Assembly (NCBI GenBank): GCA_963662715.1
Contig: OY759724.1
Coordinates: 2,310,001-2,342,000 of the forward strand
DNA: 32,000 bases
Direction of reading: 5' to 3'
Origin: Candidatus Omnitrophota bacterium
GTDB lineage: Bacteria > Omnitrophota > Gorgyraeia > Zapsychrales > JANLHA01
A program made the position numbers and the translations under genes. Positions within the stretch are counted from its first letter, which is position 1, and each line of letters starts with the position of its first letter. Under the pieces are notes generated by a model that made no database searches, was not told the DNA's origin, and saw only the letters and a list, made by a program, of their open reading frames with translations. This document shows, piece by piece, positions 3,226 through 20,739 of this stretch.

Positions 3226-4854
3226 ATGGCTTATCAGTTAAAAAAATTAGAGGGGTTCTCCGGACGCCCGGGGCCCTTGTTGCTCATTATTATGGACGGG
3301 GTCGGGCTTGGGAAACAGGATGAAAGCGATGGCGTCTTCATGGCTAAAACGCCGCATTTAGACAAACTTTTTAAGAGCGAACTTTATACGACGCTGCAGG
3401 CCCATGGGACGGCTGTCGGTATGCCGTCTGACGAAGATATGGGGAACAGTGAAGTGGGGCACAATGCCCTGGGGGCGGGACGGATTTTTGCCCAGGGAGC
3501 CGCTCTTGTTAACCAATCTATCTCATCCGGAAATATTTTCAAGACGGACACGTGGGCCGCTTTGGTCAGCCGGGCCAAGAAGGGGCAGCAGAGTTTTCAT
3601 TTGATCGGCTTGCTTTCGGACGGTAATGTCCATTCGCATATTCAGCACGTGTTGGCTTTGTTGACTCGTCTTGCGGAAGAAGGGGTCAAGACTGTCCGGC
3701 TGCATGCGCTTTTGGACGGGCGGGATGTGTATGAAAAATCAGCCCTGACATACATCGACAAGACGGAAGAGCATTTAAAACAGTTAAATGAGAGGTATGG
3801 GGCCGATTACCGAATCGCCTCTGGCGGCGGACGCATGGTGACGACCATGGACCGCTACAATGCGGACTGGACGGTTGTTAAGCGTGGCTGGGATGCTCAT
3901 GTCCTCGGGAAGGCCCGGTTATTCTCCTCCGCTCGGGAGGCTGTTTCAACGTACTATGAAGAAGACCCCGGCAGCACCGATCAATATCTCGATGCCTTCG
4001 TCATCGCCGAGGAAGGCCGGCCGGTCGGAACCATTCAAGACGGGGATTCTGTGGTGTTTTATAATTTCCGGGGAGACAGGGCCATTGAGTTGTCCCGCGC
4101 TTTTGATGAAAAGGATTTTAAAGAGTTTGATCGGGAAAGATGTCCGGATGTCCTTTATGCCGGGATGATGGAATACGACGGGGATCTTCATATCCCTAAG
4201 CATTATTTGGTGAACCCCCCGGAGATTGACCGGCCGATCAGCGTGTATCTCTGTGACAGCGGCGTGACCTCGTTTGCGATTTCGGAAACTCAAAAGTTCG
4301 GACACGTGACGTACTTTTGGAACGGCAACAACTCCGGTTACATTAATGAGAACATGGAAAAGTACGATGAAGTCCCGTCCGATAAGGTCCGTTTTGACAC
4401 AGCCCCGAAGATGAAAGCCTGCGAAATAACGGATTTGACGATTCAGTACCTGCGTAGCGGTCGGTATAAATTCGGCCGTATTAATTTTGCCAACGGAGAT
4501 ATGGTCGGGCATACCGGTATCCCTTCAGCTATTATCACGGCGGTGGAAACGGTTGATGAATGTGTGGGGAGGCTGATCGATGTTGTTGCGGAGCTGTCCG
4601 GGATTGTTGTCATAACCGCTGATCATGGGAACGCCGATGAAATGTTTACGGTAAAGAAGGGACAAAAAAGCGTCAGCACAGCGCATTCTCTTAATCGGGT
4701 CCCTTTTGTAATTGTTGACAAAAACTTTAAAAATGAATATAATATAGCTGAACCATCTAAGTTCGGCTTGTCTAACGTGGCGGCAACTTTGCTGAATTTG
4801 CTTGGCTACGAGAAACCGGAAGATTATAATTCTTCACTTATTACATTTAAGTAA
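3226..4854 (+). CDS. gpmI: 2,3-bisphosphoglycerate-independent phosphoglycerate mutase
   Basis: iPGM signatures: IIMDGVGLG, the catalytic-Ser motif MGNSEVGHNALGAGR, DGNVHSH, DGRD and ITADHGNADEM. The ATG at 3226 is preceded by AAGGGA. The TTG at 3208 in the ORF track is less likely. Confidence 0.93.
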   Translation: MAYQLKKLEGFSGRPGPLLLIIMDGVGLGKQDESDGVFMAKTPHLDKLFKSELYTTLQAHGTAVGMPSDEDMGNSEVGHNALGAGRIFAQGAALVNQSISSGNIFKTDTWAALVSRAKKGQQSFHLIGLLSDGNVHSHIQHVLALLTRLAEEGVKTVRLHALLDGRDVYEKSALTYIDKTEEHLKQLNERYGADYRIASGGGRMVTTMDRYNADWTVVKRGWDAHVLGKARLFSSAREAVSTYYEEDPGSTDQYLDAFVIAEEGRPVGTIQDGDSVVFYNFRGDRAIELSRAFDEKDFKEFDRERCPDVLYAGMMEYDGDLHIPKHYLVNPPEIDRPISVYLCDSGVTSFAISETQKFGHVTYFWNGNNSGYINENMEKYDEVPSDKVRFDTAPKMKACEITDLTIQYLRSGRYKFGRINFANGDMVGHTGIPSAIITAVETVDECVGRLIDVVAELSGIVVITADHGNADEMFTVKKGQKSVSTAHSLNRVPFVIVDKNFKNEYNIAEPSKFGLSNVAATLLNLLGYEKPEDYNSSLITFK

Positions 4855-4936
4855 CGTTATGAGATACGAGTTAATTGAGAGATGGTTGGGCGGCTTATGA
4901 AATCCATTTTCCCCTATTTTCTTCTGAATTTTCTAA

Positions 4937-4970
4937 TCCCATACCAAAAATGAGAGGTATGGGATTTTTT
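4937..4970 (+). terminator. Rho-independent terminator after gpmI
   Basis: Stem TCCCATACC (4937-4945) pairs with GGTATGGGA (4956-4964), with a 10-nt loop and a T6 run at 4965-4970. Confidence 0.75.
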
Positions 4971-5240
4971 ATTATATATGATTTTGGGGGGGAGAAGAGG
5001 TCTTAGAGTGTTTTTTGCTGTTAAAGTTGCTAAAATGTATCTCTTTTTCTCTGCTGTGTTTTTCTTTTGTAGTGCAATCACAATGAAAAATTTGCGGCAA
5101 ACCATTATGTCCGCTATAGCTTATATTGATTGAACCTGAGTAATGGTTTGTAAAACTTTGTGCGCTAAAAATACTTTTGTCCCACACAATGAGTTTTTTA
5201 GTGGTGAATTTTTGCGTGCGCTTTCAGTCAATAGAAGGGG

Positions 5241-5269
5241 TTGATATTGATTGACGTATATGATATTAT
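5241..5269 (+). promoter_or_regulatory. Candidate extended -10 promoter of the giant repeat gene
   Basis: TTGATA (5241-5246), a 17-nt spacer, then TATTAT (5264-5269) with TGA immediately upstream (a TGn extended -10). The region is very AT-rich, so alternative hexamers exist. Confidence 0.3.
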
Positions 5270-5348
5270 TTATAAGTCTAAAAATATATAATAAAGATTA
5301 GGTCTTTTGTATATAGATATCCTCAGTAATCCAAAAAGGAGTGGTCAA

Positions 5349-5447
5349 ATGTTCCAAATAATTCCTAAAACGGCTCAAAAAATGTTTTCACTAGTTCTTG
5401 TAGGGATTTTCTGTGTTTATCTTGTTTTCCCTCCAATCCTAAGCGCA
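5349..5447 (+). other. Sec-type signal peptide of the giant protein
   Basis: MFQIIPKTAQK (basic n-region), MFSLVLVGIFCVYLVF (hydrophobic core), then PPILSA followed by E (an AXA-like cleavage context). Judged by eye, not run through a predictor. Confidence 0.6.
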
Positions 5448-8400
5448 GAGCTATTGAAATTGCCCGATCCGGGAACAACAATTTCTTTTAGCCCGGGATA
5501 TCAGCCCGCTGTCATTGCCGGGGTGGTCGTGAATTCGGAAGATCCCCTTATGTTTGATTTCATCATTGACAGGGGGGATTCCGGTCTTCTGGGCGCGGAA
5601 TTGGAAGCAGAAACGAACAAGCTTGTAAAATATTTTCTTGCTGCTTTGACAATCCCTGAGGAAGAAGTCTGGGTGAACCTTTCTCCCTATGAAAGAGAGT
5701 TGATGATTCCGTTTGCTTTGGGTATTACGGAAATGGGAAAGGATATGTTGGCCCAGGATTATTTGCTAAAACAGATGACCGCATCCTTGACACACCCGGA
5801 ATCAGAAGTGGGGAAGAAATTCTGGGAAAAAGTTTATGAGAAAGCCTATAAACTTTACGGAACCACGGAGATCCCGATTAATACCTTCAGTAAAGTCTGG
5901 ATTGTCCCGAACAATGCTGTGGTTTTGGAAAAAGACGGAACGGCTTACGTGGTTGAGAATACCTTGAAAGTCATGTTGGAAGAGGATTATTTGGCTATTG
6001 AAAAGAACTTGGATAATACAGAAATTGGAACAGACCAGCTTACTAAGGAACGTGTGGAATATATAAATAATTTGTCGGCAGAGATTGTTAACGAAATTAT
6101 TTTGCCCGAGTTATCCACAGAAGTGAATGAGGGCAAAAATTTTGGATTAGTCCGGCAGGTATATAATTCCGTCATCCTTGCGACATGGTATAAAGACCGG
6201 CTAAAAGAAACACTGTTAGGCCGGATTTATGTAGATCGAAACAAGGTGGCGGGGGTTGATGTCTCAGACAAGACGATAAAAGAAAAGATTTATACCCAGT
6301 ACATGGATGCGCTTCGTCAAGGTGTTTACAACTTTATTAAGGAAGATGTGGCTCCGGGAACGAACGAAACCCTTCAGCGAAGATATTTTTCCGGAGGGAT
6401 CGAGTTTGCTATTAATGTTAATAAGACCAGCAGTCCGATTCTTTTGGGGCAGAAAGCTCAAAAGAATTGGAAATCCATGAGTTCTGGAATTGCTACACGG
6501 GAAAAATCTTTTGATAATGTGGAGCGATATGTCAGAGCCAGGGTTGGCCTGAATACGACATTGCCTATTTTAACCAATACTCAGCATGTCGCTAAAACTG
6601 TTTTGCCGAATTTGAGTTATTCAGCTGTTAATGCGGCTATAGATAACTCAACCAACATCCCGGATGACAGAAAATTAGAGTTAAAGAAAGAATTTATGGC
6701 GGCTTCTCAGGAATCCAAGAGAACCGGACGCCCGATTCAGTTAAGCCAGGTGCCGGAAATGGTGAAGGAAATTGAGTTGGGAGGAGCGAGCGGCCTGACC
6801 GAAAATTTGACCGGGGTGTTGCCTACGGTAAGTCAGGATGTCGCGGTCAGTCAAGTTGACTTTGCAAAGAATGTCGTCCCTAACCTTTCGGTTCCTATGG
6901 TCAATCAAATGATTGATCAGTCCAATCTTTCAGATAATGAAAGAGTTGTTTTAAAGGCCGAATTTAAACAAGCCAGTGATATTGCTTTGGCGGAAAAGAA
7001 ACCGATACGTCTCAGTTCTCTTCCTCAATTAGTTGGGGCTTTGGACAATATAGAAAGCGGTCTGGCTGTAGAAATAAGCCGGTCCCTGCCATCTCAGAGG
7101 CCCGATGTTGTTCAGACTCAGGTGAATGTGGCCAAACAGATCATTCCGAGCGTGAGTTCCCCGCTTATTACGCAAGCGATCGAAGGATCGAATATATCGC
7201 CGGAGAGAAAAGACACGTTAAGAAAAGAGGTGCAGGCCGAGATCAGCAAAGCCACCAGCGAGAACCGGCCGATCTCATTAGCGAACATTCCGAACCTGGC
7301 GATGGACTTAGAGAAGCCGGAGACGGGGATCGCCGCCGGCATCAGCCGTGTCCTGCCGACGTCCAGTCCGCTCGTGGAAACGGAACAGGTCTCGATGGCC
7401 AAACAGATGATCCCGAGCGTGACTCCGCAGGTTATCACGCAGGCGATCACAGGCTCGAACGTAGCACCGGAGAGGAAGGATACGTTAAGAAGAGAAGTAC
7501 AGGCCGAGGTGAGCAGAGCGACCAGCGAGAACCGGCCGATCTCATTAGCGAATATTCCGAATCTGGCGATGGATTTGGAGAAACCGGAAACAGGGATCGC
7601 TGCCGGCATCAGCCGTGTAGCGCCGAAAGCAGGCCCTGAGATGAAGGCCGGTGAAGTGAATATAGCGAAACAGATCCTGCCTAGCCTGACGGAAGCGGTT
7701 ATCACGCAGGCGATCACAGGCTCGAACGTAGCACCGGAGAGGAAGGACACGTTAAGGAGAGAAGTCGCGGCCGAGGTGAGCAGAGCGACCAGCGAGAACC
7801 GGCCGGTCTCATTAGCGAATATTCCGAACCTGGCGATGGATTTAGAGAAACCGGAAACGGGAATCGCCGCTGGAATCAGCCGTGTTTTACCTGCCTCCAG
7901 CCCTCTCGTAGAAACGGAACAGGTCACGATGGCCAAGCAGATCATTCCGAGCGTGACTCCGCAGGTTATCACGCAGGCGATCGAAGGCTCGAACGTAGCG
8001 CCAGAGAGAAAAGACACGTTAAGGAGAGAAGTGCAGGCCGAGGTGAGCAGAGCGACCAGCGAGAACCGGCCGATCTCATTAGCGAACATCCCGAATCTGG
8101 CGATGGATTTGGAGAAACCGGAAACAGGGATCGCCGCCGGCATCAGCCAGGTAGCGCCGTCCGCAAGACCTGATACAGCAGCTGCTGAAGTGAATATAGC
8201 GAAACAGATCCTGCCGAGCGTGACTCCGCAGATTATCACACAGGCGATTGAAGGCTCGAATGTCGCACCGGAGAGAAAGGATACGTTAAGAAGAGAAGTG
8301 GCGGCCGAGGTGAGCAAAGCAACCAGCGAGAACCGGCCGGTCTCATTAACGAACATCCCGAATCTGGCGATGGATTTGGAGAAACCGGAAACAGGTATCG

Positions 8401-11400
8401 CCGCCGGTATCAGCCGTGTTTTACCCGCGTCCAGTCCGCTCGTAGAGACGGAACAGGTCACGATGGCCAAACAGATTATTCCAAGTGTGACTCCGCAGGT
8501 TATCACGCAGGCGATCGAAGGCTCGAACGTAGCGCCAGAGAGAAAAGACACGTTAAGGAGAGAAGTACAGGCCGAGGTGAGCAGAGCAACCAGCGAGAAC
8601 CGGCCAATCTCATTAGCGAACATTCCGAATTTGGCGATGGATTTGGAGAAACCGGAGACGGGGATAGCCGCCGGCATCAGCCGGGTGGCTCCGAAAGCAG
8701 GCCCTGAAATGAAGGCCGGTGAAGTGAATATAGCGAAACAGATCCTGCCCAGCCTGACGGAAGCGGTTATCACGCAGGCGATCACAGGCTCAAACGTAGC
8801 GCCGGAGAGAAAAGACACGTTAAGGAGAGAAGTAGCGGCCGAGGTGAGCAAAGCGACCAGCGAGAACCGGCCGATTTCATTAGCGAATATTCCGAATCTG
8901 ACGATGGATTTGGAGAAACCGGAGACAGGTATCGCCGCCGGTATCAGCCGTGTTCTGCCGACGTCCAGTCCGCTCGTAGAGACGGAACAGGTCACGATGG
9001 CCAAGAATATCATCCCGAGCGTGAGTCCGCAGGTTATCACACAGGCGATTGAAACCGCGAATGTGACACCGCAAAGAAAAGACACGTTAAGGAGAGAAGT
9101 GGCGGCCGAGGTGAGCAAAGCAACCAGCGAGAACCGGCCGGTCTCATTAGCGAACATCCCGAATCTGACCATGGATTTGGAGAAACCGGAAACAGGGATC
9201 GCCGCCGGCATCAGCCGTGTTTTACCCGCGTCCAGTCCGCTCGTAGAGACGGAACAGGTAGCGATGGCCAAACAGATCATTCCGAGCGTGACTCCGCAGG
9301 TTATCACGCAGGCGATCGAAGGCTCGAACGTAGCGCCGGAGAGAAAGGACACGTTAAGGAGAGAAGTGGCGGCTGAGGTGAGCAGAGCGACCAGCGAAAA
9401 CCGGCCGGTCTCATTAGCGAACATCCCGAACCTGGCGATGGATTTAGAGAAACCGGAGACGGGGATCGCCGCCGGAATCAGCCGGGTAGCGCCGAAAGCA
9501 GGCCCGGTGACAGCAGCCGGTGAAGTGAATATAGCAAAACAGATCCTGCCCAGCCTGACGGAAGCGGTAATTACTCAGGCGATCTCAGGATCGAACGTAG
9601 CGCCGCAGAGAAAAGACACGTTAAGGAGAGAAGTGGCGGCCGAGGTGAGCAAAGCGACCAGCGAGAACCGGCCGATCTCATTAGCGAATATTCCGAATTT
9701 GACGATGGATTTAGAGAAACCGGAAACGGGGATAGCCGCCGGCATCAGCCGTGTTATGCCGACGTCCAGTCCGCTCGTAGAGACGGAACAGATCACGATG
9801 GCCAAACAGATCATTCCAAGCGTGACTCCGCAGGTTATCACGCAGGCGATCGAAGGCTCGAACGTAGCACCACAGAGAAAGGACACGTTAAGGAGAGAAG
9901 TAGCGGCCGAGGTGAGCAGAGCAACCAGCGAGAACCGGCCGGTCTCATTAGCGAATATTCCGAATTTGGCGATGGATTTAGAGAAGCCGGAAACGGGAAT
10001 AGCCGCCGGAATCAGCCGTGTTCTGCCAACGTCCAGTCCGCTCGTAGAGACGGAACAGGTCACGATGGCCAAGCAGATCATTCCGAGCGTGACTCCGCAG
10101 GTTATCACGCAGGCGATCGAAGGCTCGAACGTAGCGCCGGAAAGAAAAGACACGTTAAGGAGAGAAGTAGCGGCCGAGGTGAGCAGAGCGACCAGCGAGA
10201 ACCGGCCGGTCTCATTAGCGAACATCCCGAATCTGGCGATGGATCTGGAGAAACCGGAGACGGGGATTGCCGCCGGGATCAGCCGGGTAGCGCCGTCCGC
10301 CAGACCTGACACGGCAGCCGGTGAAGTGAATATAGCAAAACAAATCCTGCCCAGCCTGACGGAAGCGGTAATCACGCAGGCGATTTCAGGCTCGAATGTT
10401 GCGCCGGAGAGAAAAGACACGTTAAGAAGAGAAGTCGCGGCCGAGGTGAGCAAAGCGACCAGCGAGAACCGGCCGGTCTCATTAGCGAATATTCCGAACC
10501 TGGCGATGGATTTAGAGAAACCGGAGACGGGGATAGCCGCCGGCATCAGCCGGGTTTTACCTGCGTCCAGTCCGCTCGTAGCGACGGAACAGATCACGAT
10601 GGCCAAACAGATCATTCCGAGCGTGAGTCCGCAGGTTATCACGCAGGCGATCGAAGGCTCGAACATAGCGCCGGAGAGAAAGGACACGTTAAGGAGAGAA
10701 GTCGCGGCCGAGGTGAGCAAAGCGACCAGCGAGAACCGGCCGGTCTCATTAGCGAACATCCCGAATCTGGCGATGGATCTGGAGAAACCGGAGACGGGGA
10801 TAGCCGCCGGCATCAGCCGTGTTATGCCGACGTCCAGTCCGCTCGTAGAGACGGAACAGATCACGATGGCCAAACAGATCATTCCAAGCGTGACTCCGCA
10901 GGTTATCACGCAGGCGATCGAAGGCTCGAACGTAGCACCACAGAGAAAGGACACGTTAAGGAGAGAAGTAGCGGCCGAGGTGAGCAGAGCGACCAGCGAG
11001 AACCGGCCGATCTCATTAGCGAACGTCCCGAATCTGGCGATGGATTTAGAGAAACCGGAGACGGGGATCGCCGCCGGAATCAGCCGGGTAGCTCCGAAAG
11101 CAGGCCCGGTGACAGCAGCCGGTGAAGTGAATATAGCAAAACAGATCCTGCCCAGCCTGACGGAAGCGGTAATTACGCAGACGATTTCAGGCTCGAACGT
11201 AGCACCGGAGAGAAAAGACACGTTAAGGAGAGAAGTGGCGGCCGAGGTGAGCAAAGCGACCAGCGAGAACCGGCCGATCTCATTAGCGAACATCCCGAAT
11301 CTGGTGATGGATTTGGAGAAACCGGAGACGGGGATCGCCGCCGGAATCAGCCGTGTTCTGCCGACGTCCAGTCCGCTCGTAGAGACGGAACAGGTCACGA

Positions 11401-14400
11401 TGGCCAAGCAGATCATTCCGAGCGTGAGTCCGCAGATTATCACGCAGGCGATCTCGGGCTCGAATGTTGCACCACAGAGAAAAGACACGTTAAGGAGAGA
11501 AGTGGCGGCCGAGGTGAGCAGAGCGACCAGCGAGAACCGGCCGATCTCACTAGCGAACATCCCGAATCTGGCGATGGATCTGGAGAAACCGGAGACGGGG
11601 ATAGCCGCCGGAATCAGCCGTGTTATGCCGACATCCAGTCCGCTCGTAGAGACGGAACAGGTAGCGATGGCCAAACAGATCATTCCGAGCGTGACTCCGC
11701 AGATTATCACTCAGGCGATCGAAGGCTCGAACGTAGCACCACAGAGAAAGGACACGTTAAGGAGAGAAGTACAGGCCGAGGTGAGCAGAGCAACCAGCGA
11801 GAACCGGCCGATTTCATTAGCGAACATCCCGAATCTGGCGATGGATTTAGAGAAACCGGAAACGGGGATAGCTGCCGGGATCAGCCGGATAGCTCCGAAA
11901 GCAGGCCCTGAGACGAAAGCCGGGGAAGTGAATATAGCAAAACAAATCCTGCCCAGCCTGACGGAAGCGGTTATCACGCAGGCGATTTCAGGCTCGAACG
12001 TAGCGCCGGAAAGAAAGGACACGTTAAGGAGAGAAGTACAGGCCGAGGTGAGCAGAGCGACCAGCGAGAACCGGCCGATCTCATTAGCGAACATCCCGAA
12101 TCTGGCGATGGATTTGGAGAAACCGGAAACAGGGATCGCCGCCGGAATCAGCCGTGTTATGCCGACGTCCAGTCCGCTCGTAGAGACGGAACAGGTCACG
12201 ATGGCCAAACAGATCATTCCGAGCGTGACTCCGCAGGTTATCACGCAGGCGATCGAAGGCTCGAACGTAGCGCCGGAAAGAAAGGATACGTTAAGGAGAG
12301 AGGTGCAGGCCGAGGTGAGCAGAGCGACCAGCGAGAACCGGCCGGTCTCATTAGCGAACATCCCGAATCTGGCGATGGATTTGGAGAAACCGGAGACGGG
12401 GATCGCCGCCGGCATCAGCCGGGTGGCGCCGTCCGCAAGACCAGATACAGCAGCTGCTGAAGTGAATATAGCAAAACAGATTCTGCCCAGCCTGACGGAA
12501 GCCGTGATTACGCAGGCGATCTCAGGCTCGAACGTTGCACCACAGAGAAAAGACACGTTAAGGAGAGAAGTACAGGCCGAGGTGAGTAAAGCGACCAGCG
12601 AGAACCGGCCGATCTCATTAGCGAACATCCCGAATCTGGCGATGGATTTAGAGAAACCGGAAACGGGGATCGCCGCCGGCATCAGCCGTGTTATGCCGAC
12701 GTCCAGTCCGCTCGTAGAGACGGAACAGGTCACGATGGCCAAACAGATCATTCCAAGCGTGACTCCGCAGATTATCACGCAGGCGATCGAAGGCTCGAAC
12801 GTAGCGCCGGAAAGAAAAGACACGTTAAGGAGAGAAGTGGCGGCCGAGGTGAGCAAAGCGACCAGCGAGAACCGGCCGGTCTCATTAGCGAACATCCCGA
12901 ACCTGGCGATGGATCTGGAGAAACCAGAAACAGGGATCGCTGCCGGCATCAGCCGGGTAGCGCCGAAAGCAGGCCCTGAGATGAAAGCCGGTGAAGTGAA
13001 TATAGCAAAACAGATCCTGCCCAGCCTGACGGAAGCGGTAATTACGCAGGCGATTTCAGGCTCGAATGTTGCGCCGGAGAGAAAAGACACGTTAAGAAGA
13101 GAAGTACAGGCCGAGGTGAGCAAAGCGACCAGCGAGAACCGGCCGATCTCATTAGCGAACATCCCGAACCTGGCGATGGATTTAGAGAAACCGGAGACAG
13201 GGATCGCCGCCGGCATCAGCCGTGTTCTGCCGACGTCCAGTCCGCTCGTAGAGACGGAGCAGGTCACGGTGGCCAAACAGATCATTCCGAGCGTGAGTCC
13301 GCAGATTATCACGCAGGCGATCGAAGGCTCGAACGTAGCACCACAGAGAAAAGACACGTTAAGGAGAGAAGTGGCGGCCGAGGTGAGCAAAGCGACCAGC
13401 GAGAACCGGCCGATCTCATTAGCGAACGTCCCGAATCTGGCGATGGATTTAGAGAAACCGGAGACGGGGATCGCCGCCGGCATCAGCCGGGTCGTCCCTG
13501 CATTAACTTCTCAAGTTTCTTCAGAACGTATTTCAACTGCACAGGATATGGTTCCTAACCTCAGCCCGGCTATTATTGCAGACGCAATCAATACTGCCTC
13601 GTTGCCGGAAGCTGCTCGTCGGGAATTGCAGCAGGAATTTGAGCCTGTGAGCCGGAAAGCTTTATCAGAAGGCAAAACGGTTGAGATGAAGAATTTGCCT
13701 AAATTGGCAGCTGCTATTAATAATCCCACAACGAGGATAGCTGAAAATTTATTGAGAAATGTTCCTGCAACACCTTCGGTGGAAACTCAGGCGATGCAAA
13801 TTGAATCAGTTAAAGCGATCCTGCCTCAACTTTCATCACCGATAGTCGCTCAGGCGATCAGTGAATCCAATCTTTCGGAACAAGAGCAGGTCGATTTGAT
13901 CGGTAAATTTACGGTCGCAAGTAATTTGGCCGAGAAAACCGGACGTTTCGTTGACATTAATGCGATCCCCGGGCTTGTTCAGGCCATTGAAAAACCGGAT
14001 ACCGGATTAGCTCTTCAATTAGCCAAAGCCGTTCCTACCAAATTGGAATCCGCCGTGAATAAGCAGAATTTAAAAGTGAATACGCTTTCTTCTTTAGCCA
14101 ATCAGACGAGAGAGCTTGATGCTTTATTCAGAAAAGCGCCTGATATTGGAGCCAGGGAAAGAGAGCAGCTTATTCAGGAGATTCAGCAGCTCAAGAGAAC
14201 AGGCGGTCTGTCGGATATTAAGAAATTCCGTTCACAAGCATCACCGGAACTTTTAGCCCGGGTAACCAAACCTCCGATCGGCCCAGAGCTGGAAAGAGTC
14301 GGTGGTATTAATTTGAACGCCAAGCTCTTTGATTTTCAAATTAATAAGGAGGGGAAGGGCATTGATATCCCTATCGCTCTAAAAGATGGTCAGGAAATCA

Positions 14401-14525
14401 ATTTTGGCGGTCTGGAGCCGTTTGTCATCGAAGTTGTTCCGGCGACGCCAGAATCTATTCCATTCAATGAATCCAGTACTGATACAGCTGTGAAAGATGA
14501 TCCTTTGAGAATTTCGAAATACTAG
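5349..14525 (+). CDS. Giant secreted tandem-repeat protein (about 3058 aa): N-terminal conserved-looking domain, 28 x ~89-aa modules, C-terminal domain; function unknown (putative surface fibre or adhesin)
   Basis: A single uninterrupted 9.2-kb frame. AAGGAG (5336-5341) lies 7 nt upstream of the ATG at 5349. There is an N-terminal signal peptide. Degenerate flanking repeat units are conserved at protein level only in this frame. A strong terminator follows directly downstream. Confidence 0.9.
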   Translation: MFQIIPKTAQKMFSLVLVGIFCVYLVFPPILSAELLKLPDPGTTISFSPGYQPAVIAGVVVNSEDPLMFDFIIDRGDSGLLGAELEAETNKLVKYFLAALTIPEEEVWVNLSPYERELMIPFALGITEMGKDMLAQDYLLKQMTASLTHPESEVGKKFWEKVYEKAYKLYGTTEIPINTFSKVWIVPNNAVVLEKDGTAYVVENTLKVMLEEDYLAIEKNLDNTEIGTDQLTKERVEYINNLSAEIVNEIILPELSTEVNEGKNFGLVRQVYNSVILATWYKDRLKETLLGRIYVDRNKVAGVDVSDKTIKEKIYTQYMDALRQGVYNFIKEDVAPGTNETLQRRYFSGGIEFAINVNKTSSPILLGQKAQKNWKSMSSGIATREKSFDNVERYVRARVGLNTTLPILTNTQHVAKTVLPNLSYSAVNAAIDNSTNIPDDRKLELKKEFMAASQESKRTGRPIQLSQVPEMVKEIELGGASGLTENLTGVLPTVSQDVAVSQVDFAKNVVPNLSVPMVNQMIDQSNLSDNERVVLKAEFKQASDIALAEKKPIRLSSLPQLVGALDNIESGLAVEISRSLPSQRPDVVQTQVNVAKQIIPSVSSPLITQAIEGSNISPERKDTLRKEVQAEISKATSENRPISLANIPNLAMDLEKPETGIAAGISRVLPTSSPLVETEQVSMAKQMIPSVTPQVITQAITGSNVAPERKDTLRREVQAEVSRATSENRPISLANIPNLAMDLEKPETGIAAGISRVAPKAGPEMKAGEVNIAKQILPSLTEAVITQAITGSNVAPERKDTLRREVAAEVSRATSENRPVSLANIPNLAMDLEKPETGIAAGISRVLPASSPLVETEQVTMAKQIIPSVTPQVITQAIEGSNVAPERKDTLRREVQAEVSRATSENRPISLANIPNLAMDLEKPETGIAAGISQVAPSARPDTAAAEVNIAKQILPSVTPQIITQAIEGSNVAPERKDTLRREVAAEVSKATSENRPVSLTNIPNLAMDLEKPETGIAAGISRVLPASSPLVETEQVTMAKQIIPSVTPQVITQAIEGSNVAPERKDTLRREVQAEVSRATSENRPISLANIPNLAMDLEKPETGIAAGISRVAPKAGPEMKAGEVNIAKQILPSLTEAVITQAITGSNVAPERKDTLRREVAAEVSKATSENRPISLANIPNLTMDLEKPETGIAAGISRVLPTSSPLVETEQVTMAKNIIPSVSPQVITQAIETANVTPQRKDTLRREVAAEVSKATSENRPVSLANIPNLTMDLEKPETGIAAGISRVLPASSPLVETEQVAMAKQIIPSVTPQVITQAIEGSNVAPERKDTLRREVAAEVSRATSENRPVSLANIPNLAMDLEKPETGIAAGISRVAPKAGPVTAAGEVNIAKQILPSLTEAVITQAISGSNVAPQRKDTLRREVAAEVSKATSENRPISLANIPNLTMDLEKPETGIAAGISRVMPTSSPLVETEQITMAKQIIPSVTPQVITQAIEGSNVAPQRKDTLRREVAAEVSRATSENRPVSLANIPNLAMDLEKPETGIAAGISRVLPTSSPLVETEQVTMAKQIIPSVTPQVITQAIEGSNVAPERKDTLRREVAAEVSRATSENRPVSLANIPNLAMDLEKPETGIAAGISRVAPSARPDTAAGEVNIAKQILPSLTEAVITQAISGSNVAPERKDTLRREVAAEVSKATSENRPVSLANIPNLAMDLEKPETGIAAGISRVLPASSPLVATEQITMAKQIIPSVSPQVITQAIEGSNIAPERKDTLRREVAAEVSKATSENRPVSLANIPNLAMDLEKPETGIAAGISRVMPTSSPLVETEQITMAKQIIPSVTPQVITQAIEGSNVAPQRKDTLRREVAAEVSRATSENRPISLANVPNLAMDLEKPETGIAAGISRVAPKAGPVTAAGEVNIAKQILPSLTEAVITQTISGSNVAPERKDTLRREVAAEVSKATSENRPISLANIPNLVMDLEKPETGIAAGISRVLPTSSPLVETEQVTMAKQIIPSVSPQIITQAISGSNVAPQRKDTLRREVAAEVSRATSENRPISLANIPNLAMDLEKPETGIAAGISRVMPTSSPLVETEQVAMAKQIIPSVTPQIITQAIEGSNVAPQRKDTLRREVQAEVSRATSENRPISLANIPNLAMDLEKPETGIAAGISRIAPKAGPETKAGEVNIAKQILPSLTEAVITQAISGSNVAPERKDTLRREVQAEVSRATSENRPISLANIPNLAMDLEKPETGIAAGISRVMPTSSPLVETEQVTMAKQIIPSVTPQVITQAIEGSNVAPERKDTLRREVQAEVSRATSENRPVSLANIPNLAMDLEKPETGIAAGISRVAPSARPDTAAAEVNIAKQILPSLTEAVITQAISGSNVAPQRKDTLRREVQAEVSKATSENRPISLANIPNLAMDLEKPETGIAAGISRVMPTSSPLVETEQVTMAKQIIPSVTPQIITQAIEGSNVAPERKDTLRREVAAEVSKATSENRPVSLANIPNLAMDLEKPETGIAAGISRVAPKAGPEMKAGEVNIAKQILPSLTEAVITQAISGSNVAPERKDTLRREVQAEVSKATSENRPISLANIPNLAMDLEKPETGIAAGISRVLPTSSPLVETEQVTVAKQIIPSVSPQIITQAIEGSNVAPQRKDTLRREVAAEVSKATSENRPISLANVPNLAMDLEKPETGIAAGISRVVPALTSQVSSERISTAQDMVPNLSPAIIADAINTASLPEAARRELQQEFEPVSRKALSEGKTVEMKNLPKLAAAINNPTTRIAENLLRNVPATPSVETQAMQIESVKAILPQLSSPIVAQAISESNLSEQEQVDLIGKFTVASNLAEKTGRFVDINAIPGLVQAIEKPDTGLALQLAKAVPTKLESAVNKQNLKVNTLSSLANQTRELDALFRKAPDIGAREREQLIQEIQQLKRTGGLSDIKKFRSQASPELLARVTKPPIGPELERVGGINLNAKLFDFQINKEGKGIDIPIALKDGQEINFGGLEPFVIEVVPATPESIPFNESSTDTAVKDDPLRISKY
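6546..7085 (+). repeat. Two degenerate N-terminal copies (91 and 89 aa) of the 89-aa module
   Basis: They align to the core unit through shared landmarks: AK-x-[VI]-[VIL]-P-[NS]-L-S, Q/A-I-[DE]-x-S-N, a charged helix-like stretch, [RK]-P-I-x-L-S, and P-x-[LM]-V/A ... G-[LI]-A/T. Nucleotide similarity to the core units is low. Confidence 0.7.
7086..13493 (+). repeat. 24 near-identical in-frame tandem units of exactly 267 bp (89 aa)
   Basis: The motif GIAAGIS occurs 24 times in the translation at a constant 89-aa spacing. The 267-bp period was checked at nucleotide level (for example 7316 vs 7583). The unit boundaries used here give 7086 + 24 x 267 - 1 = 13493. Confidence 0.95.
13494..14030 (+). 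repeat. Two degenerate C-terminal copies (89 and 90 aa) of the module
   Basis: VPALTSQVSSERISTAQDMVPNLSPAIIADAINTASLPEAARREL... and VPATPSVETQAMQIESVKAILPQLSSPIVAQAISESNLSEQEQ... keep the same landmark spacing as the core unit, including EKPDTGLA in the last copy. Confidence 0.7.
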
Positions 14526-14549
14526 TATTCATTGACACGGTATTGAAAA

Positions 14550-14582
14550 GGCGGGAATCATGATTGATTCCCGCCTTTTTGT
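14550..14582 (+). terminator. Rho-independent terminator of the giant gene
   Basis: A perfect 10-bp stem, GGCGGGAATC (14550-14559) with GATTCCCGCC (14566-14575), a 6-nt loop, then TTTTTGTT. Confidence 0.85.
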
Positions 14583-14590
14583 TATCGCGA

Positions 14591-15145
14591 AAAAACCACG
14601 GCCATGAGGCCGTGGATGAAGCGTTTCCGAGGTCTTGGTTGCGTATGATACAATGGGTGCATGAGATATTTGAAGCAAGGACACACAGTTTACTATGCCA
14701 GATACCATATTGTCATTTGTACAAGATATAGGCGAAAGATATTGCGATGGGGTTCGGCGGAGTATGTCAAAAGATGCGTTTTGGGAGTGATGAGACGGTA
14801 TCCTGAGATCATCATTGAAAAAGTAAATACAGATTTAGATCATATGCATCTTTTGGCATCAATTCCGCCGAAGATGGCTGTAAGTCATGCAGTAAATCTG
14901 ATTAAGAGTAACACAGCAAAGCTGATGAGGCGGCGATATAAGTTTTTAGACAAGATGTATGTGAAAAAGGCAGGGATATGGTCAGCAGGGTATTTTGTGT
15001 CAACGGTTGGAGCCGACGAAGAATCGATAAAGCGATACATCGAATATCAAGGCCGGGAAGACCGAGGACAAACGCAGATAGAATTTTAGCTGCGTTTGCA
15101 CAGTCAAAATAGTTAAGAAACCACGGCCGTGAGGCCGTGGAGTTT
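14591..15145 (+). mobile_element. IS200/IS605-family insertion sequence (TnpA only), approximate ends
   Basis: A Y1 transposase ORF is bracketed by two same-orientation 20-nt hairpins: CCACGGCC-ATGA-GGCCGTGG (14596-14615) and CCACGGCC-GTGA-GGCCGTGG (15121-15140). Both are preceded by GAAA(A). This matches the subterminal LE/RE hairpin architecture of the family. Exact cleavage sites were not determined. Confidence 0.8.
14661..15089 (+). CDS. tnpA: IS200/IS605 family Y1 (HUH) transposase TnpA
   Basis: YHIVICTRYRRKIL, the HUH motif in LDHMHLL, SAGYFVSTVG, and the C-terminal IKRYIEYQ (catalytic Tyr context). At 142 aa the size is typical. Confidence 0.92.
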   Translation: MRYLKQGHTVYYARYHIVICTRYRRKILRWGSAEYVKRCVLGVMRRYPEIIIEKVNTDLDHMHLLASIPPKMAVSHAVNLIKSNTAKLMRRRYKFLDKMYVKKAGIWSAGYFVSTVGADEESIKRYIEYQGREDRGQTQIEF

Positions 15146-15409
15146 CATTGTGCCAATCATAAATGGCCAGAAAATGATTTAAAGCATTGATTTCCCCTTC
15201 AAATATCTATATAGTTTAGAAGTAAGTTTTGTTCCTGTTTGGGCCCGTTGCGAGGTTGAACATTCCCCTCTTTGCGCTATGAGTGTCCTCCTCTTGATTG
15301 AGGCGTGCCTGGTTGGGTTTTTAATAAATTCATATTTTATATGATCTCGTCGTTTTTTATCCTTTTCAATATCACGCAAAACTGTTGCGGGCTTATCATA
15401 AGAAAAGAC

Positions 15410-16180
15410 ATGACGTCTTGTTTGCATATCCCTACGGTGGCTTCCGGGATTGTCAGTGGCTTGATTCTTCTGTTCATCGTTGTTCTCCTGTTCATCATCA
15501 TATTGTTTTGTTTTTGTGTTTTTTTTGACCAGGCTGTCTTCATCCGAAAAGGGACTTTTTTCTGCGCTCCTAATCATGGAAAAAGGGTTGCTTTAACTTT
15601 TGATGACGGCCCTTCTCCGCGCTGGACTCCCCAAATATTGGATGAGTTGTCCAAAGCAGGCATCAAGGCGACTTTTTTTATGATCGGTTATCATGTGAGC
15701 AAATATCCCGAGATCGCCCGACGAGTCGCCGAAGAGGGCCATTTAATAGGGAACCACGGCTATGCGCATAGTGTGCTGTTTTATTATAAGCCTGCCGAAA
15801 TAGAAGAGGAAATCAAATACACGGAAGAAGTGATTAGACAGGTGACAGGTCAGGTGACACGATACTTCCGCCCGCCGAAAGCGTGGCTGAGACATTCCAT
15901 TAAGGATATTATCCATTCTATGGGCTACAAGGTCGTTCTGTGGTCCTTGAATTCTAAGGATTGGGTCACGTTTAACCACCGGTCTATCGTCCGTTTTATC
16001 GTAAGACGAATTAAGAATGGAGATGTTTTGTTGTTTCATGACAGCGGGAGCATTTTCGGGATAGAAGGAGGAGACCGTACTCAGACCGTGGCTACAATAC
16101 CATTATTGGTTCAAAAGTTAAAAGAAAAGGGGTATCAATTTGTTACCATTGACGAACTATTTTCTGATGAAGAATGCTAG
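15410..16180 (+). CDS. Membrane-anchored polysaccharide deacetylase (NodB homology / CE4 domain)
   Basis: NodB motifs VALTFDDGP, HLIGNHGYAH and YFRPP. A single N-terminal TM helix (VASGIVSGLILLFIVVLLFIIILFCFCVFF) is present. The start is uncertain: ATG 15410 is chosen, with GTG 15305 and ATG 15341 as alternatives. Confidence 0.82.
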   Translation: MTSCLHIPTVASGIVSGLILLFIVVLLFIIILFCFCVFFDQAVFIRKGTFFCAPNHGKRVALTFDDGPSPRWTPQILDELSKAGIKATFFMIGYHVSKYPEIARRVAEEGHLIGNHGYAHSVLFYYKPAEIEEEIKYTEEVIRQVTGQVTRYFRPPKAWLRHSIKDIIHSMGYKVVLWSLNSKDWVTFNHRSIVRFIVRRIKNGDVLLFHDSGSIFGIEGGDRTQTVATIPLLVQKLKEKGYQFVTIDELFSDEEC

Positions 16181-17861: not shown

Positions 17862-17915
17862 TTTCGGCTTTTGTATAATCTTATTAAGTTTTAATAACAG
17901 ATCATAAGGGAGATT

Positions 17916-18959: not shown

Positions 18960-18960
18960 A

Positions 18961-19214
18961 AATGAGTCCCAAACTTGCGGAGCGCCAGCGAGGCAAGTTT
19001 GCTGGAGGAATTAATCCCGCTGTCCGAGGTTGGGCGGGGAATGAGTCCCAAACTTGCGGAGCGCCAGCGAGGCAAGTTTGCTGGAGGAATTAATCCCGCT
19101 GTCTGAAGTTGGGCGGGAAATGAGTCCCAAACTTGCGGAGCGCCAGCGAGGCAAGTTTGTTGGAGGAATTAATCCCGCTGTCCGAGGTTGGGCGGGAAAT
19201 GAGTCCCAAACTTA
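18961..19214. repeat. 79-bp tandem direct repeat, 3.2 copies, non-coding
   Basis: Units start at 18961, 19040, 19119 and 19198 (the last is only about 16 nt). Copies differ at 1-3 positions. Each unit holds a 9-bp perfect hairpin, CAAACTTGC-14 nt-GCAAGTTTG, and a second CCCGC-13 nt-GCGGG hairpin. A 79-bp period is not a multiple of 3. Confidence 0.9.
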
Positions 19215-20570: not shown

Positions 20571-20739
20571 GAATGGATCTTATGAGAAGGGGGGAGCCGT
20601 AAGTCATATCCTTTCCCCGGAAGAAGGTTTTACGTGAGGGGCCCTGGCTTGCCAAGAATAAAAATTGCTTTTAAATAGTTTCAAAAGAGATTATGATAAC
20701 GGAGAATTCAACGTCTCCCATGGCCAGAGAAGGAGGATC

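What the first reader, a model, noticed from the sequence alone, without database searches (positions are those of the whole stretch)
5349..14525. 9.2-kb gene for a secreted ~3058-aa protein made of 28 tandem 89-aa modules that I cannot assign to any named family
Direct observations:
- One uninterrupted + frame, with a good SD and ATG, a Sec-type signal peptide and a strong terminator.
- The core is 24 units of exactly 267 bp, each ending ...MDLEKPETGIAAGISRV, flanked by 2+2 highly diverged units with the same landmark spacing. The module is therefore old and the central array is a homogenised or expanded version of it.
- Unit consensus: LPTSSPLVETEQVTMAKQIIPSVTPQVITQAIEGSNVAPERKDTLRREVAAEVS[KR]ATSENRP[IV]SLANIPNLAMDLEKPETGIAAGISRV.

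Interpretation:
- Composition is Ala/Glu/Lys/Arg-rich blocks punctuated by Pro. That looks like helical-bundle beads on a string rather than Ig, cadherin or beta-roll adhesin repeats. This is an inference by eye.
- It has no RTX, LPXTG, PEP-CTERM or autotransporter end that I can recognise.
- Near-identical nucleotide-level repeats in surface proteins (for example Rib/alpha-C and Ebh-type proteins) are classically linked to length variation and to host, phage or immune interplay.

This is the most likely candidate for an undescribed surface structure in the window.
Basis: partly seen in the sequence, partly recalled or inferred. Interest (0 to 1): 0.85.

Follow-up and report, generated by a model that had tools for sequence, protein, structure and literature searches.

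The report
Omnitrophota secreted 28-module helical repeat protein
This is a real 9.2-kb gene from an uncultured Omnitrophota bacterium that encodes an exported, cysteine-free protein built from 28 small helical modules. It belongs to a large, undescribed Omnitrophota family in which the same start and end domains bracket very different middles, so it is a moderately interesting new variant of a long repetitive surface-type protein.

Summary
One + strand ORF (5349-14525, 3058 aa) contains 24 units of exactly 267 bp plus 2+2 diverged units.

- The units are not near-identical in DNA. Mean identity is 84% and no two are the same.
- There are two interleaved head types, A and B.
- The protein does have a recognisable C-terminal end.

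What it is:
- It is one paralogue of a family of at least 575 members, seen almost only in Omnitrophota. The layout is signal peptide, conserved ~320-aa N domain, hypervariable middle, then a conserved ~55-aa C-terminal motif.
- The family has no Pfam or NCBIfam model and about 11-fold less cysteine than neighbouring genes.
- The 89-aa unit is predicted all-alpha, five helices, with low-confidence linkers.
- A profile search of 1.84 billion proteins found only 12 hits. The only link to a named family is a 30-residue stretch resembling DUF1542.

Evolution:
- A syntenic orthologue on a 584-kb contig has 26 units.
- Its core consensus is 45% identical to ours, against 81-85% for the N domain and tail.
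- This indicates homogenisation within each array and fast divergence between lineages.

Most likely function (inferred): an extracellular or cell-surface segmented fibril or tether. New variant of a known kind; interest about 0.55.

The parts
5241..5269 (+). Candidate sigma-70-type promoter (TTGATA-17-TATTAT with an upstream TG)
   Evidence: Consensus scan. The block is conserved in the orthologous loci L082 and L001. Function not tested.
5336..5341 (+). Shine-Dalgarno sequence AAGGAG, 7 nt before the ATG
   Evidence: Read directly. Conserved together with the ATG in three orthologues.
5349..14525 (+). Coding sequence, 3058 aa plus stop. The mature protein is about 324 kDa, pI 5.3, with no cysteine.
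5349..5447 (+). Sec-type signal peptide (aa 1-33, MFQIIPKTAQKMFSLVLVGIFCVYLVFPPILSA|E)
   Evidence: Hydropathy shows it is the only TM-like segment. Family members carry AxA|Q-type sites at the same place. Not run through SignalP.
5454..6398 (+). Conserved N-terminal domain of the Omnitrophota 'conserved-ends' family (aa 36-350; LPxPG ... WVNLSPYE ... AQDYLLKQ ... KVWIVP ... YFSGG)
   Evidence: More than 1293 homologues at 45-81% identity. At least 575 relatives in GTDB genomes. Conserved columns. AF2 pLDDT 70.7 with no PDB or BFVD fold match. No Pfam or NCBIfam model.
6399..6551 (+). Low-confidence linker after the N domain (aa 351-401); contains the first SSPI motif at aa 361
   Evidence: pLDDT below 50 for residues 342-401. 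Motif position.
6552..7085 (+). Two diverged N-side 89-aa modules (N1, N2)
   Evidence: 26-33% identical to a core unit. 78% and 81% identical to the same modules in orthologue P0241.
7086..13493 (+). Core array: 24 modules of exactly 267 bp (15 A heads, 9 B heads)
   Evidence: Within-array dN/dS 0.21 and GC3 0.67. Predicted all-alpha, five helices per unit.
13494..14027 (+). Two diverged C-side 89-aa modules (C1, C2)
   Evidence: 54% and 78% identical to the orthologue's modules.
14028..14288 (+). Non-repeat tail segment (aa 2894-2980) between the array and the C-terminal motif
   Evidence: Sequence. The tail as a whole is 81% identical to the orthologue.
14289..14450 (+). Family C-terminal motif (aa 2981-3034; vGGINLN..FDFQINKEGKGIDIPIAL....GLEPFVIEVVPA)
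   Evidence: A profile built from 66 other family members, without this protein, scores 42.9 bits, E 1.6e-15 in a search of this one protein (Z=1). 66 of 69 3'-complete family ORFs end with it. No Pfam hit.
14544..14582 (+). Intrinsic terminator (GC-rich hairpin plus U-run)
   Evidence: dG -32.9 kcal/mol, z -6.9.

Best explanation
The gene encodes a Sec-exported, cysteine-free fibrous protein of about 324 kDa from an uncultured Omnitrophota bacterium.

It is one paralogue of a family seen almost only in that phylum, with several copies per genome. The family layout is a cleavable signal peptide, a conserved ~320-aa N-terminal domain, a highly variable middle, and a conserved ~55-aa motif at the extreme C-terminus. 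Here the middle is 28 tandem 89-aa all-alpha modules, five helices each, joined by short Pro/Ser-rich linkers. That would make a long segmented rod or tether, roughly 100 nm if extended (my estimate).

The 24 central modules are kept alike by recombination within the array (gene conversion or unequal crossing-over). They are under purifying selection within a genome. Between lineages they diverge several times faster than the rest of the protein, mostly on the longest helix, while the unit number stays similar.

Inferred function: the two conserved ends handle export and/or anchoring. The repeat array acts as an extracellular or cell-surface spacer or adhesive fibril whose fast-changing helix surface contacts a partner cell or escapes recognition.

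Shown: the anatomy, family membership, predicted helical nature, evolutionary pattern and cysteine avoidance. Inferred: location outside the outer membrane, the role of the ends, and the adhesive or tether function.
For: - Real gene: intact 9.2-kb frame with SD, ATG and terminator. Codon-position pattern and dN/dS 0.21 support coding in the + frame.
- Family: N domain has >1293 homologues, nearly all named as Omnitrophota. There are at least 575 relatives in GTDB genomes, with several per MAG.
- Family ends: 66 of 69 3'-complete members end in the C motif. An independent profile matches our aa 2981-3034.
- Variable middles: ankyrin, methyltransferase, Zeta toxin and metallophosphatase by Pfam; receiver-like, HEAT-like and TM segments by my reading of the sequences. 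Only 2 of 95 members are markedly repetitive, against 69% of residues in ours.
- Export: N-terminal signal peptide and no other TM segment; 0 Cys in 3025 mature residues. Family Cys is 0.098% against 1.10% in 376 neighbouring ORFs.
- Structure: AF2 of three units gives pLDDT 79, all helix, with low confidence at unit starts.
- Evolution: the syntenic orthologue L082/P0241 has 26 units. Identity is 84.5% for the N domain, 81% for the tail, 78-81% for N1, N2 and C2, but 45% for the core consensus. Twelve neighbouring proteins are 52-95% identical. Between-orthologue dN is 0.50 for the core against 0.12-0.18 for N1, N2, C2 and the tail, and 0.33 for C1. Helix 3 is 25% conserved against 57% for helix 1 and 80% for the linker.
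- Context: Omnitrophota are ultra-small, probably host-dependent cells whose long ORFs have been proposed as adhesins (PMC10066038).
Against: - No experiment or localisation predictor places the protein outside the outer membrane.
- No known outer-membrane translocation or anchoring domain is present: no RTX, autotransporter, YadA anchor, LPXTG or PEP-CTERM hit in Pfam.
- The roles of the N domain and C motif are unknown. Neither has a fold or sequence match in PDB or BFVD.
- No conserved neighbouring secretion gene was found across 81 family loci.
- The AF2 alignment is shallow (33 rows, mostly paralogous units) and pTM is 0.49. Module packing and rod length are therefore uncertain.
- Many family members carry domains normally active in the cytoplasm. 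That fits delivered effectors better than structural surface proteins.
Confidence: 0.5

Rival explanations
1. Delivered effector. The family is a cargo-delivery platform: the conserved N domain and C motif mediate secretion or translocation into a host or prey cell, and the variable middle is the payload. Here the payload would be a repeat array that binds a periodic target in or on the partner cell, such as a sheath, S-layer, cell wall or filament.
For: - Family middles include ankyrin repeats, Zeta toxin, SMODS-associated NUDIX, metallophosphatase and methyltransferases by Pfam, and receiver-like segments by my reading. These are typical of proteins acting inside cells or in conflict systems.
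- The whole family avoids cysteine, as substrates translocated unfolded often do.
- Omnitrophota are proposed predators or parasites (PMC10066038; 10.1101/2023.11.21.568195).
Against: - A 324-kDa rod of 28 folded bundles is an unlikely translocation substrate.
- No immunity-like or chaperone gene is adjacent.
- No recurrent neighbour gene exists across 81 family loci.
- No known translocation domain was detected.
Confidence: 0.15
2. Envelope-internal scaffold. The protein crosses only the inner membrane and stays in the periplasm or envelope as a structural element. It is not exposed on the surface.
For: - Only a Sec signal is demonstrable.
- No outer-membrane export or anchor domain of a known type is present.
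Against: - Extended length would be far larger than a periplasm (my estimate).
- Near-total cysteine avoidance and core modules evolving faster than all 12 neighbouring proteins are more typical of exposed proteins than of internal scaffolds.
Confidence: 0.15
3. Polyprotein. The SSP[VIL] motif at module heads is a processing site. The precursor is cut into many copies of 89-aa (A) or 178-aa (A+B) helical modules, which are the functional products.
For: - [SA]SP[ILVM] occurs 69 times in 161,076 family residues against 13.6 expected. Control ORFs show 9 against 10.5.
- In several members it sits where I read domain boundaries: just before receiver-like segments, just before the C motif and just after the N domain.
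- In our protein it heads the 15 A-type core units, and it also occurs after the N domain and inside units 1 and C2.
- The linker is the best-conserved part of the unit between orthologues, 80%.
- Cleavage of Omnitrophota giant proteins by their own C39 or S8 peptidase domains has been suggested (10.1101/2023.11.21.568195).
Against: - B-type heads lack the motif.
- No protease is encoded nearby.
- About 30 of the 69 motifs come from three proteins.
- The motif could equally be a helix cap, a glycosylation site or a plain linker.
- There is no direct evidence of cleavage.
Confidence: 0.1
4. Assembly artefact or decaying pseudogene. The array is a mis-assembled collapse or expansion of fewer repeats and is not a functional gene.
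For: - Relatives break short-read assemblies inside the array: P0001/L001, L002, P0242, L083 and L004.
- The window's sequencing technology is unknown.
Against: - No two units are identical, and the frame is intact over 9.2 kb with dN/dS 0.21.
- A syntenic orthologue on a 584-kb contig carries an equally long array of 26 units, with dN/dS 0.165.
Confidence: 0.02

Closest known systems
DUF1542 (PF07564) helical repeats of Gram-positive LPXTG surface proteins (Ebh, FmtB/Mrp and Lactobacillus-type proteins; protein examples from my own knowledge)
   Same: - Long tandem arrays of ~76-89-aa alpha-helical modules in secreted surface proteins.
- 4 of the 12 hits of the unit profile are DUF1542 proteins.
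- hhalign of the unit against DUF1542 repeats gives 93% probability, E 3e-7, over a shared AIxxSNLxxxxKxxLxxxVxxxVxxA stretch. Reversed-sequence controls give 0.3-0.4%.
   Different: - Only 30 of 89 columns align.
- The Pfam DUF1542 model does not hit the units even at E<=1.
- Unit length differs (89 against 76-77 aa), with five predicted helices.
- The host is an Omnitrophota bacterium, presumably diderm: LpxD is encoded next to a relative.
- There is no LPXTG anchor, and the end domains are different.
Omnitrophota long or giant 'tandem-repeat scaffold' proteins (10.64898/2026.06.07.730766; 10.1101/2023.11.21.568195; PMC10066038)
   Same: - Same phylum.
- Long exported proteins with few or no annotated domains and internal repeats.
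- Copies have accumulated synonymous and tolerated substitutions rather than being fresh expansions. This matches dS of about 0.5 within our array.
- A role in adhesion to host or prey cells has been proposed.
   Different: - Those studies concern ORFs longer than 20 kb or proteins of 10,000 aa or more, with repeats of named Pfam families (TSP3, WD40, HEAT, TPR). Ours is 3058 aa with an unnamed module.
- In term searches of these three papers I found no description of the conserved N domain, C motif, cysteine depletion or SSP motif.
LapA/BAP-type RTX giant adhesins (type I secretion; from my own knowledge)
   Same: Three-part logic: an N-terminal retention or anchor module, a long array of near-identical repeats acting as a stalk, and a C-terminal ~50-60-aa secretion signal. 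These proteins are also cysteine-poor. c-di-GMP genes lie nearby, as in Lap systems: GGDEF at 17916-18905 and REC-EAL at 27369-28538.
   Different: - Ours has an N-terminal Sec-type signal peptide, which T1SS substrates lack.
- There are no RTX nonapeptide repeats.
- The repeats are helical, not Ig-like.
- No T1SS genes lie in the window.
Rib / alpha-C family repeats of streptococci
   Same: Tandem repeats in a secreted protein, with copy-number differences between strains or lineages and homogenisation within the array.
   Different: - Rib repeats are beta-rich Ig-like domains and are identical at DNA level.
- Ours are helical, average 84% DNA identity and show within-array dS of about 0.5.
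- No Pfam Rib hit.

Membership tests
Omnitrophota 'conserved-ends' family (unnamed; defined here) | N-terminal signal peptide followed by the conserved ~320-aa N domain | tested here: met
   Homologues at E 1e-110 to 1e-233 and 45-81% identity. Conserved columns. AxA-type cleavage sites are visible in members.
Omnitrophota 'conserved-ends' family (unnamed; defined here) | Conserved ~55-aa motif vGGI[DN]LN...GF.PVIINI.P within about 55 aa of the C-terminus | tested here: met
   An independent 66-member profile scores 42.9 bits at aa 2981-3034, E 1.6e-15 in a search of this one protein (Z=1). 66 of 69 complete members have the motif.
Omnitrophota 'conserved-ends' family (unnamed; defined here) | Near absence of cysteine | tested here: met
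   0 Cys in 3025 mature residues. Family 0.098% against neighbours 1.10%.
DUF1542 (PF07564) | Match to the Pfam model at or above the gathering score (24.3 bits) | tested here: not met
   No DUF1542 hit on three consecutive units, or on the flanking units, at E<=1.
DUF1542 (PF07564) | Homology over the whole ~76-aa domain in profile-profile comparison | tested here: inconclusive
   hhalign 93% probability, E 3e-7, but only 30 columns align. Reversed controls give 0.3-0.4%. This is a local match, either remote homology or convergence.
Gram-positive LPXTG surface proteins | C-terminal LPXTG motif, TM helix and charged tail (PF00746) | tested here: not met
   No Pfam hit. No C-terminal TM-like segment.
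RTX / type I secretion adhesins | GGxGxDxUx nonapeptide repeats (PF00353) and no N-terminal Sec signal | tested here: not met
   No RTX hit. An N-terminal signal-peptide-like segment is present.
Autotransporters (type Va / Vc) | C-terminal beta-barrel (PF03797) or YadA anchor (PF03895) | tested here: not met
   No Pfam hit on the last 374 aa or on seven family C-termini, even at E<=1. The C motif is only ~55 aa.
Rib / alpha-C, FIVAR and GA-module repeats | Match to the respective Pfam models | tested here: not met
   None listed among hits at E<=1.
Omnitrophota giant genes (as in West-Roberts 2023 and Seymour 2023) | ORF longer than 20 kb, or protein of 10,000 aa or more | tested here: not met
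   9.2 kb and 3058 aa. Thresholds as quoted.
Sec/SPase I secreted proteins | Cleavable N-terminal signal peptide called by a dedicated predictor | not testable with these tools
   Manual reading and hydropathy only. SignalP or DeepTMHMM were not available.

The most novel reading that the evidence does not exclude
The conserved N domain and C-terminal motif, together with family-wide cysteine avoidance and the SSP[VIL] motif that I read at domain boundaries, mark a previously undescribed export, sorting or processing pathway in Omnitrophota. Through it these ultra-small, probably host-dependent bacteria would display or deliver hundreds of different payloads. The 28-module helical array would be one payload that has become a fast-evolving contact fibril. 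If so, the family gives a defined sequence handle on what Omnitrophota long proteins do and how they leave the cell.
Probability: 0.25. Interest if true: 0.8.

Novelty: new variant of a known kind. Interest (0 to 1): 0.55.

Why it matters
- Omnitrophota are widespread, uncultured, ultra-small bacteria thought to live on other cells. Their long proteins are repeatedly proposed as adhesins or attack devices, but they are almost unannotated.
- This gene shows that a whole class of their exported proteins shares the same two end modules, avoids cysteine, and carries interchangeable middles.
- In one lineage the middle has become a helical repeat rod. It is homogenised within a genome yet diverges faster between lineages than all 12 neighbouring proteins compared.
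- That yields concrete, testable objects: two end domains to test for export or anchoring, a small helical module for structural work, and an array whose length and surface can be followed in long-read metagenomes.
- By itself, a long repetitive secreted protein in this phylum is not surprising.

Tried and rejected
- Exact look-up of the window protein in public assemblies: not on record.
- Word-indexed homologue search with the unit alignment: 1066 candidates, none significant. The exhaustive search had already found the orthologue, so this is a limit of the index.
- Foldseek of the N-domain model against PDB and BFVD, and of the 3-unit model against PDB: best E 1.0, 0.17 and 0.045, all with TM-scores of 0.22 or less. 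No usable match.
- PDB sequence searches with the unit profile, C-motif profile and N domain: nothing below E 0.018.
- Weak Pfam PrkA hit on the units (37 bits summed over three repeats): judged to be repeat amplification of a weak local match.
- Unit-profile hits P0243 and P0244. P0243 has no domain above 10 bits and matches mainly the ~30-residue helix-pair segment. P0244's best stretch covers only unit positions 63-84. Judged not homologous.
- Self-BLAST for internal repeats returned nothing even for our own protein, a method failure. Replaced by repeated 5-mer counting.
- Search for a conserved neighbouring gene, such as a secretion partner, across 81 family loci: the most frequent neighbours are single REC proteins (10 loci), ABC ATPases (7) and GGDEF proteins (7). 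Nothing specific. A PMT-like glycosyltransferase follows the gene in both orthologous loci but is not a recurrent family neighbour.
- No other paralogue in the window.
- Rfam on the window and on the 5' leader: nothing.
- JGI metagenome scan for orthologues to compare copy number: one 2.3-kb contig only.
- Literature search for the C-motif strings: no paper.
- Lipoprotein reading rejected. The only Cys is inside the hydrophobic core with Phe at -1, and the orthologue has no Cys there.


Full report
**1. The observation**

A single + strand ORF runs from 5307 (TTG) or 5349 (ATG) to 14525. ATG 5349 is preceded by AAGGAG at 5336-5341. The SD-ATG block and a promoter-like TTGATA-17-TATTAT (5241-5269) are conserved in three orthologous loci, so 5349 is the likely start. 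The gene ends in a strong hairpin plus U-run (14544-14582; dG -32.9 kcal/mol, z -6.9).

Tandem Repeats Finder reports period 267, 23.8 copies, 82% matches. Parsing by the GISR[VI]/GISQV motif gives 24 units of exactly 89 aa at 7086-13493. Two further 89-aa units on each side (6552-7085 and 13494-14027) are 26-33% identical to a core unit.

**2. Corrections to the observation**

- The units are not near-identical in DNA. Pairwise identity averages 84% (73-96%), no two are the same, and the longest exact repeated word is 197 nt.
- Differences concentrate at codon position 3 of the + frame. NG86 gives dN 0.107 and dS 0.509, a ratio of 0.21. The array is translated in this frame and is under purifying selection. 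The long minus-strand ORFs within it are by-products of the repeat.
- Units come in two head types: A (LPTSSPLVETEQ..., 15 units) and B (APKAGPE... or APSARPD..., 9 units), in the order AABABABAABAABAABAABABABA. The first 84 nt are 53% identical between A and B. The remaining 183 nt are about 90% identical whatever the type.
- No two B units are adjacent. By my count this has a chance probability of about 0.009: C(16,9)/C(24,9). The array was probably built or maintained in AB/AAB blocks, and homogenisation acts on the unit body.
- GC3 is 0.67 in the array. It is 0.40-0.45 in the rest of the same gene and 0.45-0.57 in five other genes of the window.

**3. What the protein is made of**

Neither Pfam nor NCBIfam recognises the N-terminal 434 aa, the units or the last 374 aa.

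The N terminus (MFQIIPKTAQKMFSLVLVGIFCVYLVFPPILSA|ELL) has two lysines, a 20-residue hydrophobic core and an LSA|E site. It is the only TM-like segment in the protein. SignalP was not available. Relatives show AxA|Q-type sites at the same place.

The mature protein is about 324 kDa, pI 5.3, with no cysteine in 3025 residues.

**4. A large family with conserved ends**

- The N-terminal 434 aa has more than 1293 significant homologues at 45-81% identity. Almost all that carry a name are Candidatus Omnitrophota MAG proteins, and most are 'partial'.
- Full-length relatives of 600-750 aa share the signal peptide and a ~320-aa N domain (LPxPG, WVNLSPYE, AQDYLLKQ, KVWIVP, YFSGG). Their middles are unrelated to one another. 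They end in a common motif, vGGI[DN]LNP..L.LQIKRDG.GvPLP......I.GF.PVIINI.P.
- In GTDB species representatives at least 575 stretches encode a relative. All 78 listed loci are MAGs: most are titled Omnitrophota, about 25 'uncultured Planctomycetales' (which I take to be mislabelled) and one simply 'bacterium'. Several loci come from the same MAG, for example at least 6 in OFTM38 and 5 in SMAG_U7936.
- I extracted 95 family ORFs from these loci. Of the 69 that are complete at the 3' end, 66 end with the C motif within 1-55 aa of the terminus. Lengths run from about 750 aa to more than 3700 aa, the limit of the fetched flank.
- A profile built only from those 66 C-termini matches our protein at aa 2981-3034 (42.9 bits, E 1.6e-15 in a search of this one protein, Z=1). 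The protein therefore does have a recognisable end, though not one of the named kinds.
- The family has no Pfam or NCBIfam model for either end.
- The AF2 model of the N domain (pLDDT 70.7, confident mainly over residues 40-110, 190-210 and 250-290) has no structural neighbour in PDB or BFVD.
- Term searches of three Omnitrophota papers found no description of these ends.

**5. Family-wide properties that bear on location**

- Middles are heterogeneous. Pfam finds ankyrin repeats, methyltransferases, metallophosphatase, Zeta toxin and a SMODS-associated NUDIX domain. By reading the sequences I also see receiver-like segments, HEAT-like repeats and an occasional TM helix.
- The family as a whole nevertheless avoids cysteine: 0.098% over 161,076 residues, against 1.10% in 376 neighbouring ORFs of the same loci. 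68 of 95 members have none beyond the N-terminal region. From general knowledge, such avoidance is typical of proteins that work outside the cytoplasm or are translocated unfolded.
- The tetrapeptide [SA]SP[ILVM] is five-fold enriched (69 against 13.6 expected; controls 9 against 10.5). In several members it sits where I read domain boundaries: immediately before receiver-like segments, immediately before the C motif, or just after the N domain.
- In our protein the motif follows the N domain (NKTSSPIL, aa 361) and heads the 15 A-type core units. It also occurs inside units 1 and C2.
- No gene is a recurrent neighbour across 81 family loci.

**6. The 89-aa module**

AF2 on three consecutive units used a 33-row alignment of unit triplets from this protein and its orthologue. 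It gives pLDDT 79, all-alpha, five helices per unit (about 6-19, 25-33, 39-58, 69-75 and 82-87). Confidence is low at the unit starts and pTM is 0.49, so the modules are well defined but their mutual arrangement is not. Foldseek finds nothing specific (best E 0.045, TM 0.17).

An exhaustive profile search of 1.84 billion representative proteins found only 12 hits.
- True relatives are P0241, P0242, P0245 and P0003. By name, synteny or N-domain homology these are Omnitrophota, except P0245, a fragment whose source I did not check.
- Four hits are DUF1542 repeat proteins; the one complete sequence (P0246) has an LPXTG anchor hit.
- Of the other four, I examined only P0243 and P0244, which match only short stretches.
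- hhalign of the unit against DUF1542 repeats gives 93% probability and E 3e-7, but over 30 columns only (unit 29-58, AIxxSNLxxxxKxxLxxxVxxxVxxA). Reversed-sequence controls give 0.3-0.4%.
- The Pfam DUF1542 model itself does not hit the units at E<=1.

I therefore treat DUF1542 as the closest named relative in form, not as the unit's family.

**7. Orthologue comparison**

P0241 (2888 aa) lies on a 584-kb contig (L082) in the same gene order: aldolases, iPGM, the gene, PMT-like glycosyltransferase, GGDEF, PrmA, RF-1 domain protein, membrane protein, ApbE, phosphorylase. It has 26 units against our 28.

| Region | Identity between the two orthologues |
|---|---|
| N domain | 84.5% |
| Tail | 81% |
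| N1 / N2 / C2 | 78% / 81% / 78% |
| C1 | 54% |
| Core consensus | 45% (mean core-to-core 40%) |
| 12 neighbouring proteins | 52-95% |

- Units within each array are about 80-87% identical in protein, depending on how the core is delimited.
- Between-orthologue dN is 0.50 for core units, 0.12-0.18 for N1, N2, C2 and the tail, and 0.33 for C1. Synonymous sites are saturated, so dN/dS between species cannot be interpreted.
- Within-array dS is about 0.5 and dN/dS about 0.17-0.21 in both genomes. Both arrays share the raised GC3, 0.67 and 0.69.
- Divergence between the two consensus units is greatest in helix 3 and its flanks (17-25% identity). It is least in the PTSSP linker (80%), helix 1 (57%) and the C-terminal third (56%).

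The pattern is concerted evolution in each lineage, with rapid change of one face of the module and roughly conserved unit number. Other relatives (P0001/L001, L002, P0242, L083, L004) all end at a contig edge, most of them visibly inside the array. This shows that the array defeats short-read assembly.

**8. Most likely mechanism**

Shown: an exported, cysteine-free protein whose conserved ends are shared with hundreds of paralogues, and whose middle is a segmented helical array under concerted evolution.

Inferred: the ends serve export and/or anchoring. The array forms a rod or tether of the order of 100 nm. My estimate assumes 28 modules of 3-4 nm each, with the longest helix 20 residues. 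The array would act outside the cell as a spacer or adhesive fibril, with helix 3 as the fast-evolving contact or recognition surface.

This fits what is proposed for long Omnitrophota proteins in ultra-small, probably host-dependent cells (PMC10066038; 10.1101/2023.11.21.568195; 10.64898/2026.06.07.730766). I give it 0.5.

Rivals:
- A delivered effector whose payload binds a periodic target (0.15). This is favoured by the enzyme-like and toxin-like middles of other members.
- A periplasmic or envelope scaffold (0.15). Only Sec export is demonstrable.
- A polyprotein cut at SSP[VIL] sites (0.1).
- An assembly artefact (0.02).

**9. Comparison with known systems and novelty**

The protein works most like the long helical repeat surface proteins of Gram-positive bacteria (DUF1542/Ebh type). 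In three-part logic it resembles LapA-type adhesins: an N-terminal module, a repeat stalk and a C-terminal signal. It fails the defining tests of each: Pfam models, LPXTG, RTX repeats, absence of a Sec signal, and a barrel or YadA anchor.

It resembles the 'tandem-repeat scaffold' class of Omnitrophota long proteins but is far below the size studied there, and it uses an unnamed module.

I rate it a new variant of a known kind. The gene by itself is moderately interesting. The more novel lead is the conserved-ends family, with its cysteine avoidance and SSP motif.

**10. Limits**

- There is no localisation predictor, no coordinates for the models, no reads for the window, and only one complete orthologue.
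- The structure alignment for the units is shallow.
- The taxonomic assignment rests on homologue names and on synteny with Omnitrophota MAG contigs.

Noticed in passing
window 7086-13493; L082 array (within 10001-18667): Third-position GC is 0.67 in the window array and 0.69 in the orthologue's array. It is 0.40-0.51 in the N-domain and tail parts of the same two genes. This could reflect GC-biased gene conversion in the homogenised repeats, or codon selection. Unexplained.
   Followed up: partly
family ORFs in L004-L081; window aa 361 and heads of A-type units: The short motif SSP[VIL] is five-fold enriched in the conserved-ends family and not in neighbouring genes. In several members it sits where I read domain boundaries: before receiver-like segments, before the C motif and after the N domain. 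It could be a processing, glycosylation or capping signal.
   Followed up: partly
window 14596-15140: An IS200-like (Y1) transposase gene (14661-15089) is flanked by two near-identical GC-rich hairpins (14596-14615 and 15121-15140), right after the gene's terminator. This element and the polysaccharide deacetylase gene (15305-16180) are absent from the orthologous locus L082, where the PMT-like gene follows directly.
   Followed up: partly
window 16140-17861 (and L082 19078-20736): A PMT/ArnT-type GT-C glycosyltransferase is the next conserved gene downstream in both orthologous loci. Given the conserved PTSSP linkers, O-glycosylation of the repeat protein is conceivable. However, PMT is not a recurrent neighbour of other family members.
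   Followed up: partly
window 18960-19213: A 79-bp unit is repeated 3.2 times at 96% identity between the GGDEF gene and prmA. Its inner part (32 nt) has no exact match in any of the 83 fetched loci, including the orthologous locus. Its fold is not better than shuffled sequence (z -1.06).
   Followed up: partly
window about 4985-5110 and 5235-5348: The ~490-bp leader upstream of the gene contains blocks conserved in three orthologous loci (GGGGGGGAGAAGAGGT..., TCTCTTTTTTCTCTGCGGT..., CACAATGAAAA.T.TGCGG.AA), besides the promoter-SD block. There is no Rfam match. Possibly regulatory.
   Followed up: partly
window 17916-18905 and 27369-28538: A GGDEF diguanylate cyclase and a REC-EAL phosphodiesterase lie near the gene. 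GGDEF proteins occur near family genes in 7 of 81 loci and single REC proteins in 10 of 81. Those families are common, so no link is claimed.
   Followed up: partly
L058 (JAGOSC010000092.1), family ORF 3839-6496: Another family member carries an unrelated tandem repeat with an 88-aa period (...VFTLDQERFE.LVRLK...). It is cut by the contig end. This suggests that repeat arrays of about this period have arisen more than once in the family.
   Followed up: no
window 20665-22356: A 563-aa multi-pass membrane protein has no Pfam hit at E<=0.001. It is conserved in the orthologous locus (72% identity) and overlaps the start of the ApbE gene by 4 nt.
   Followed up: no
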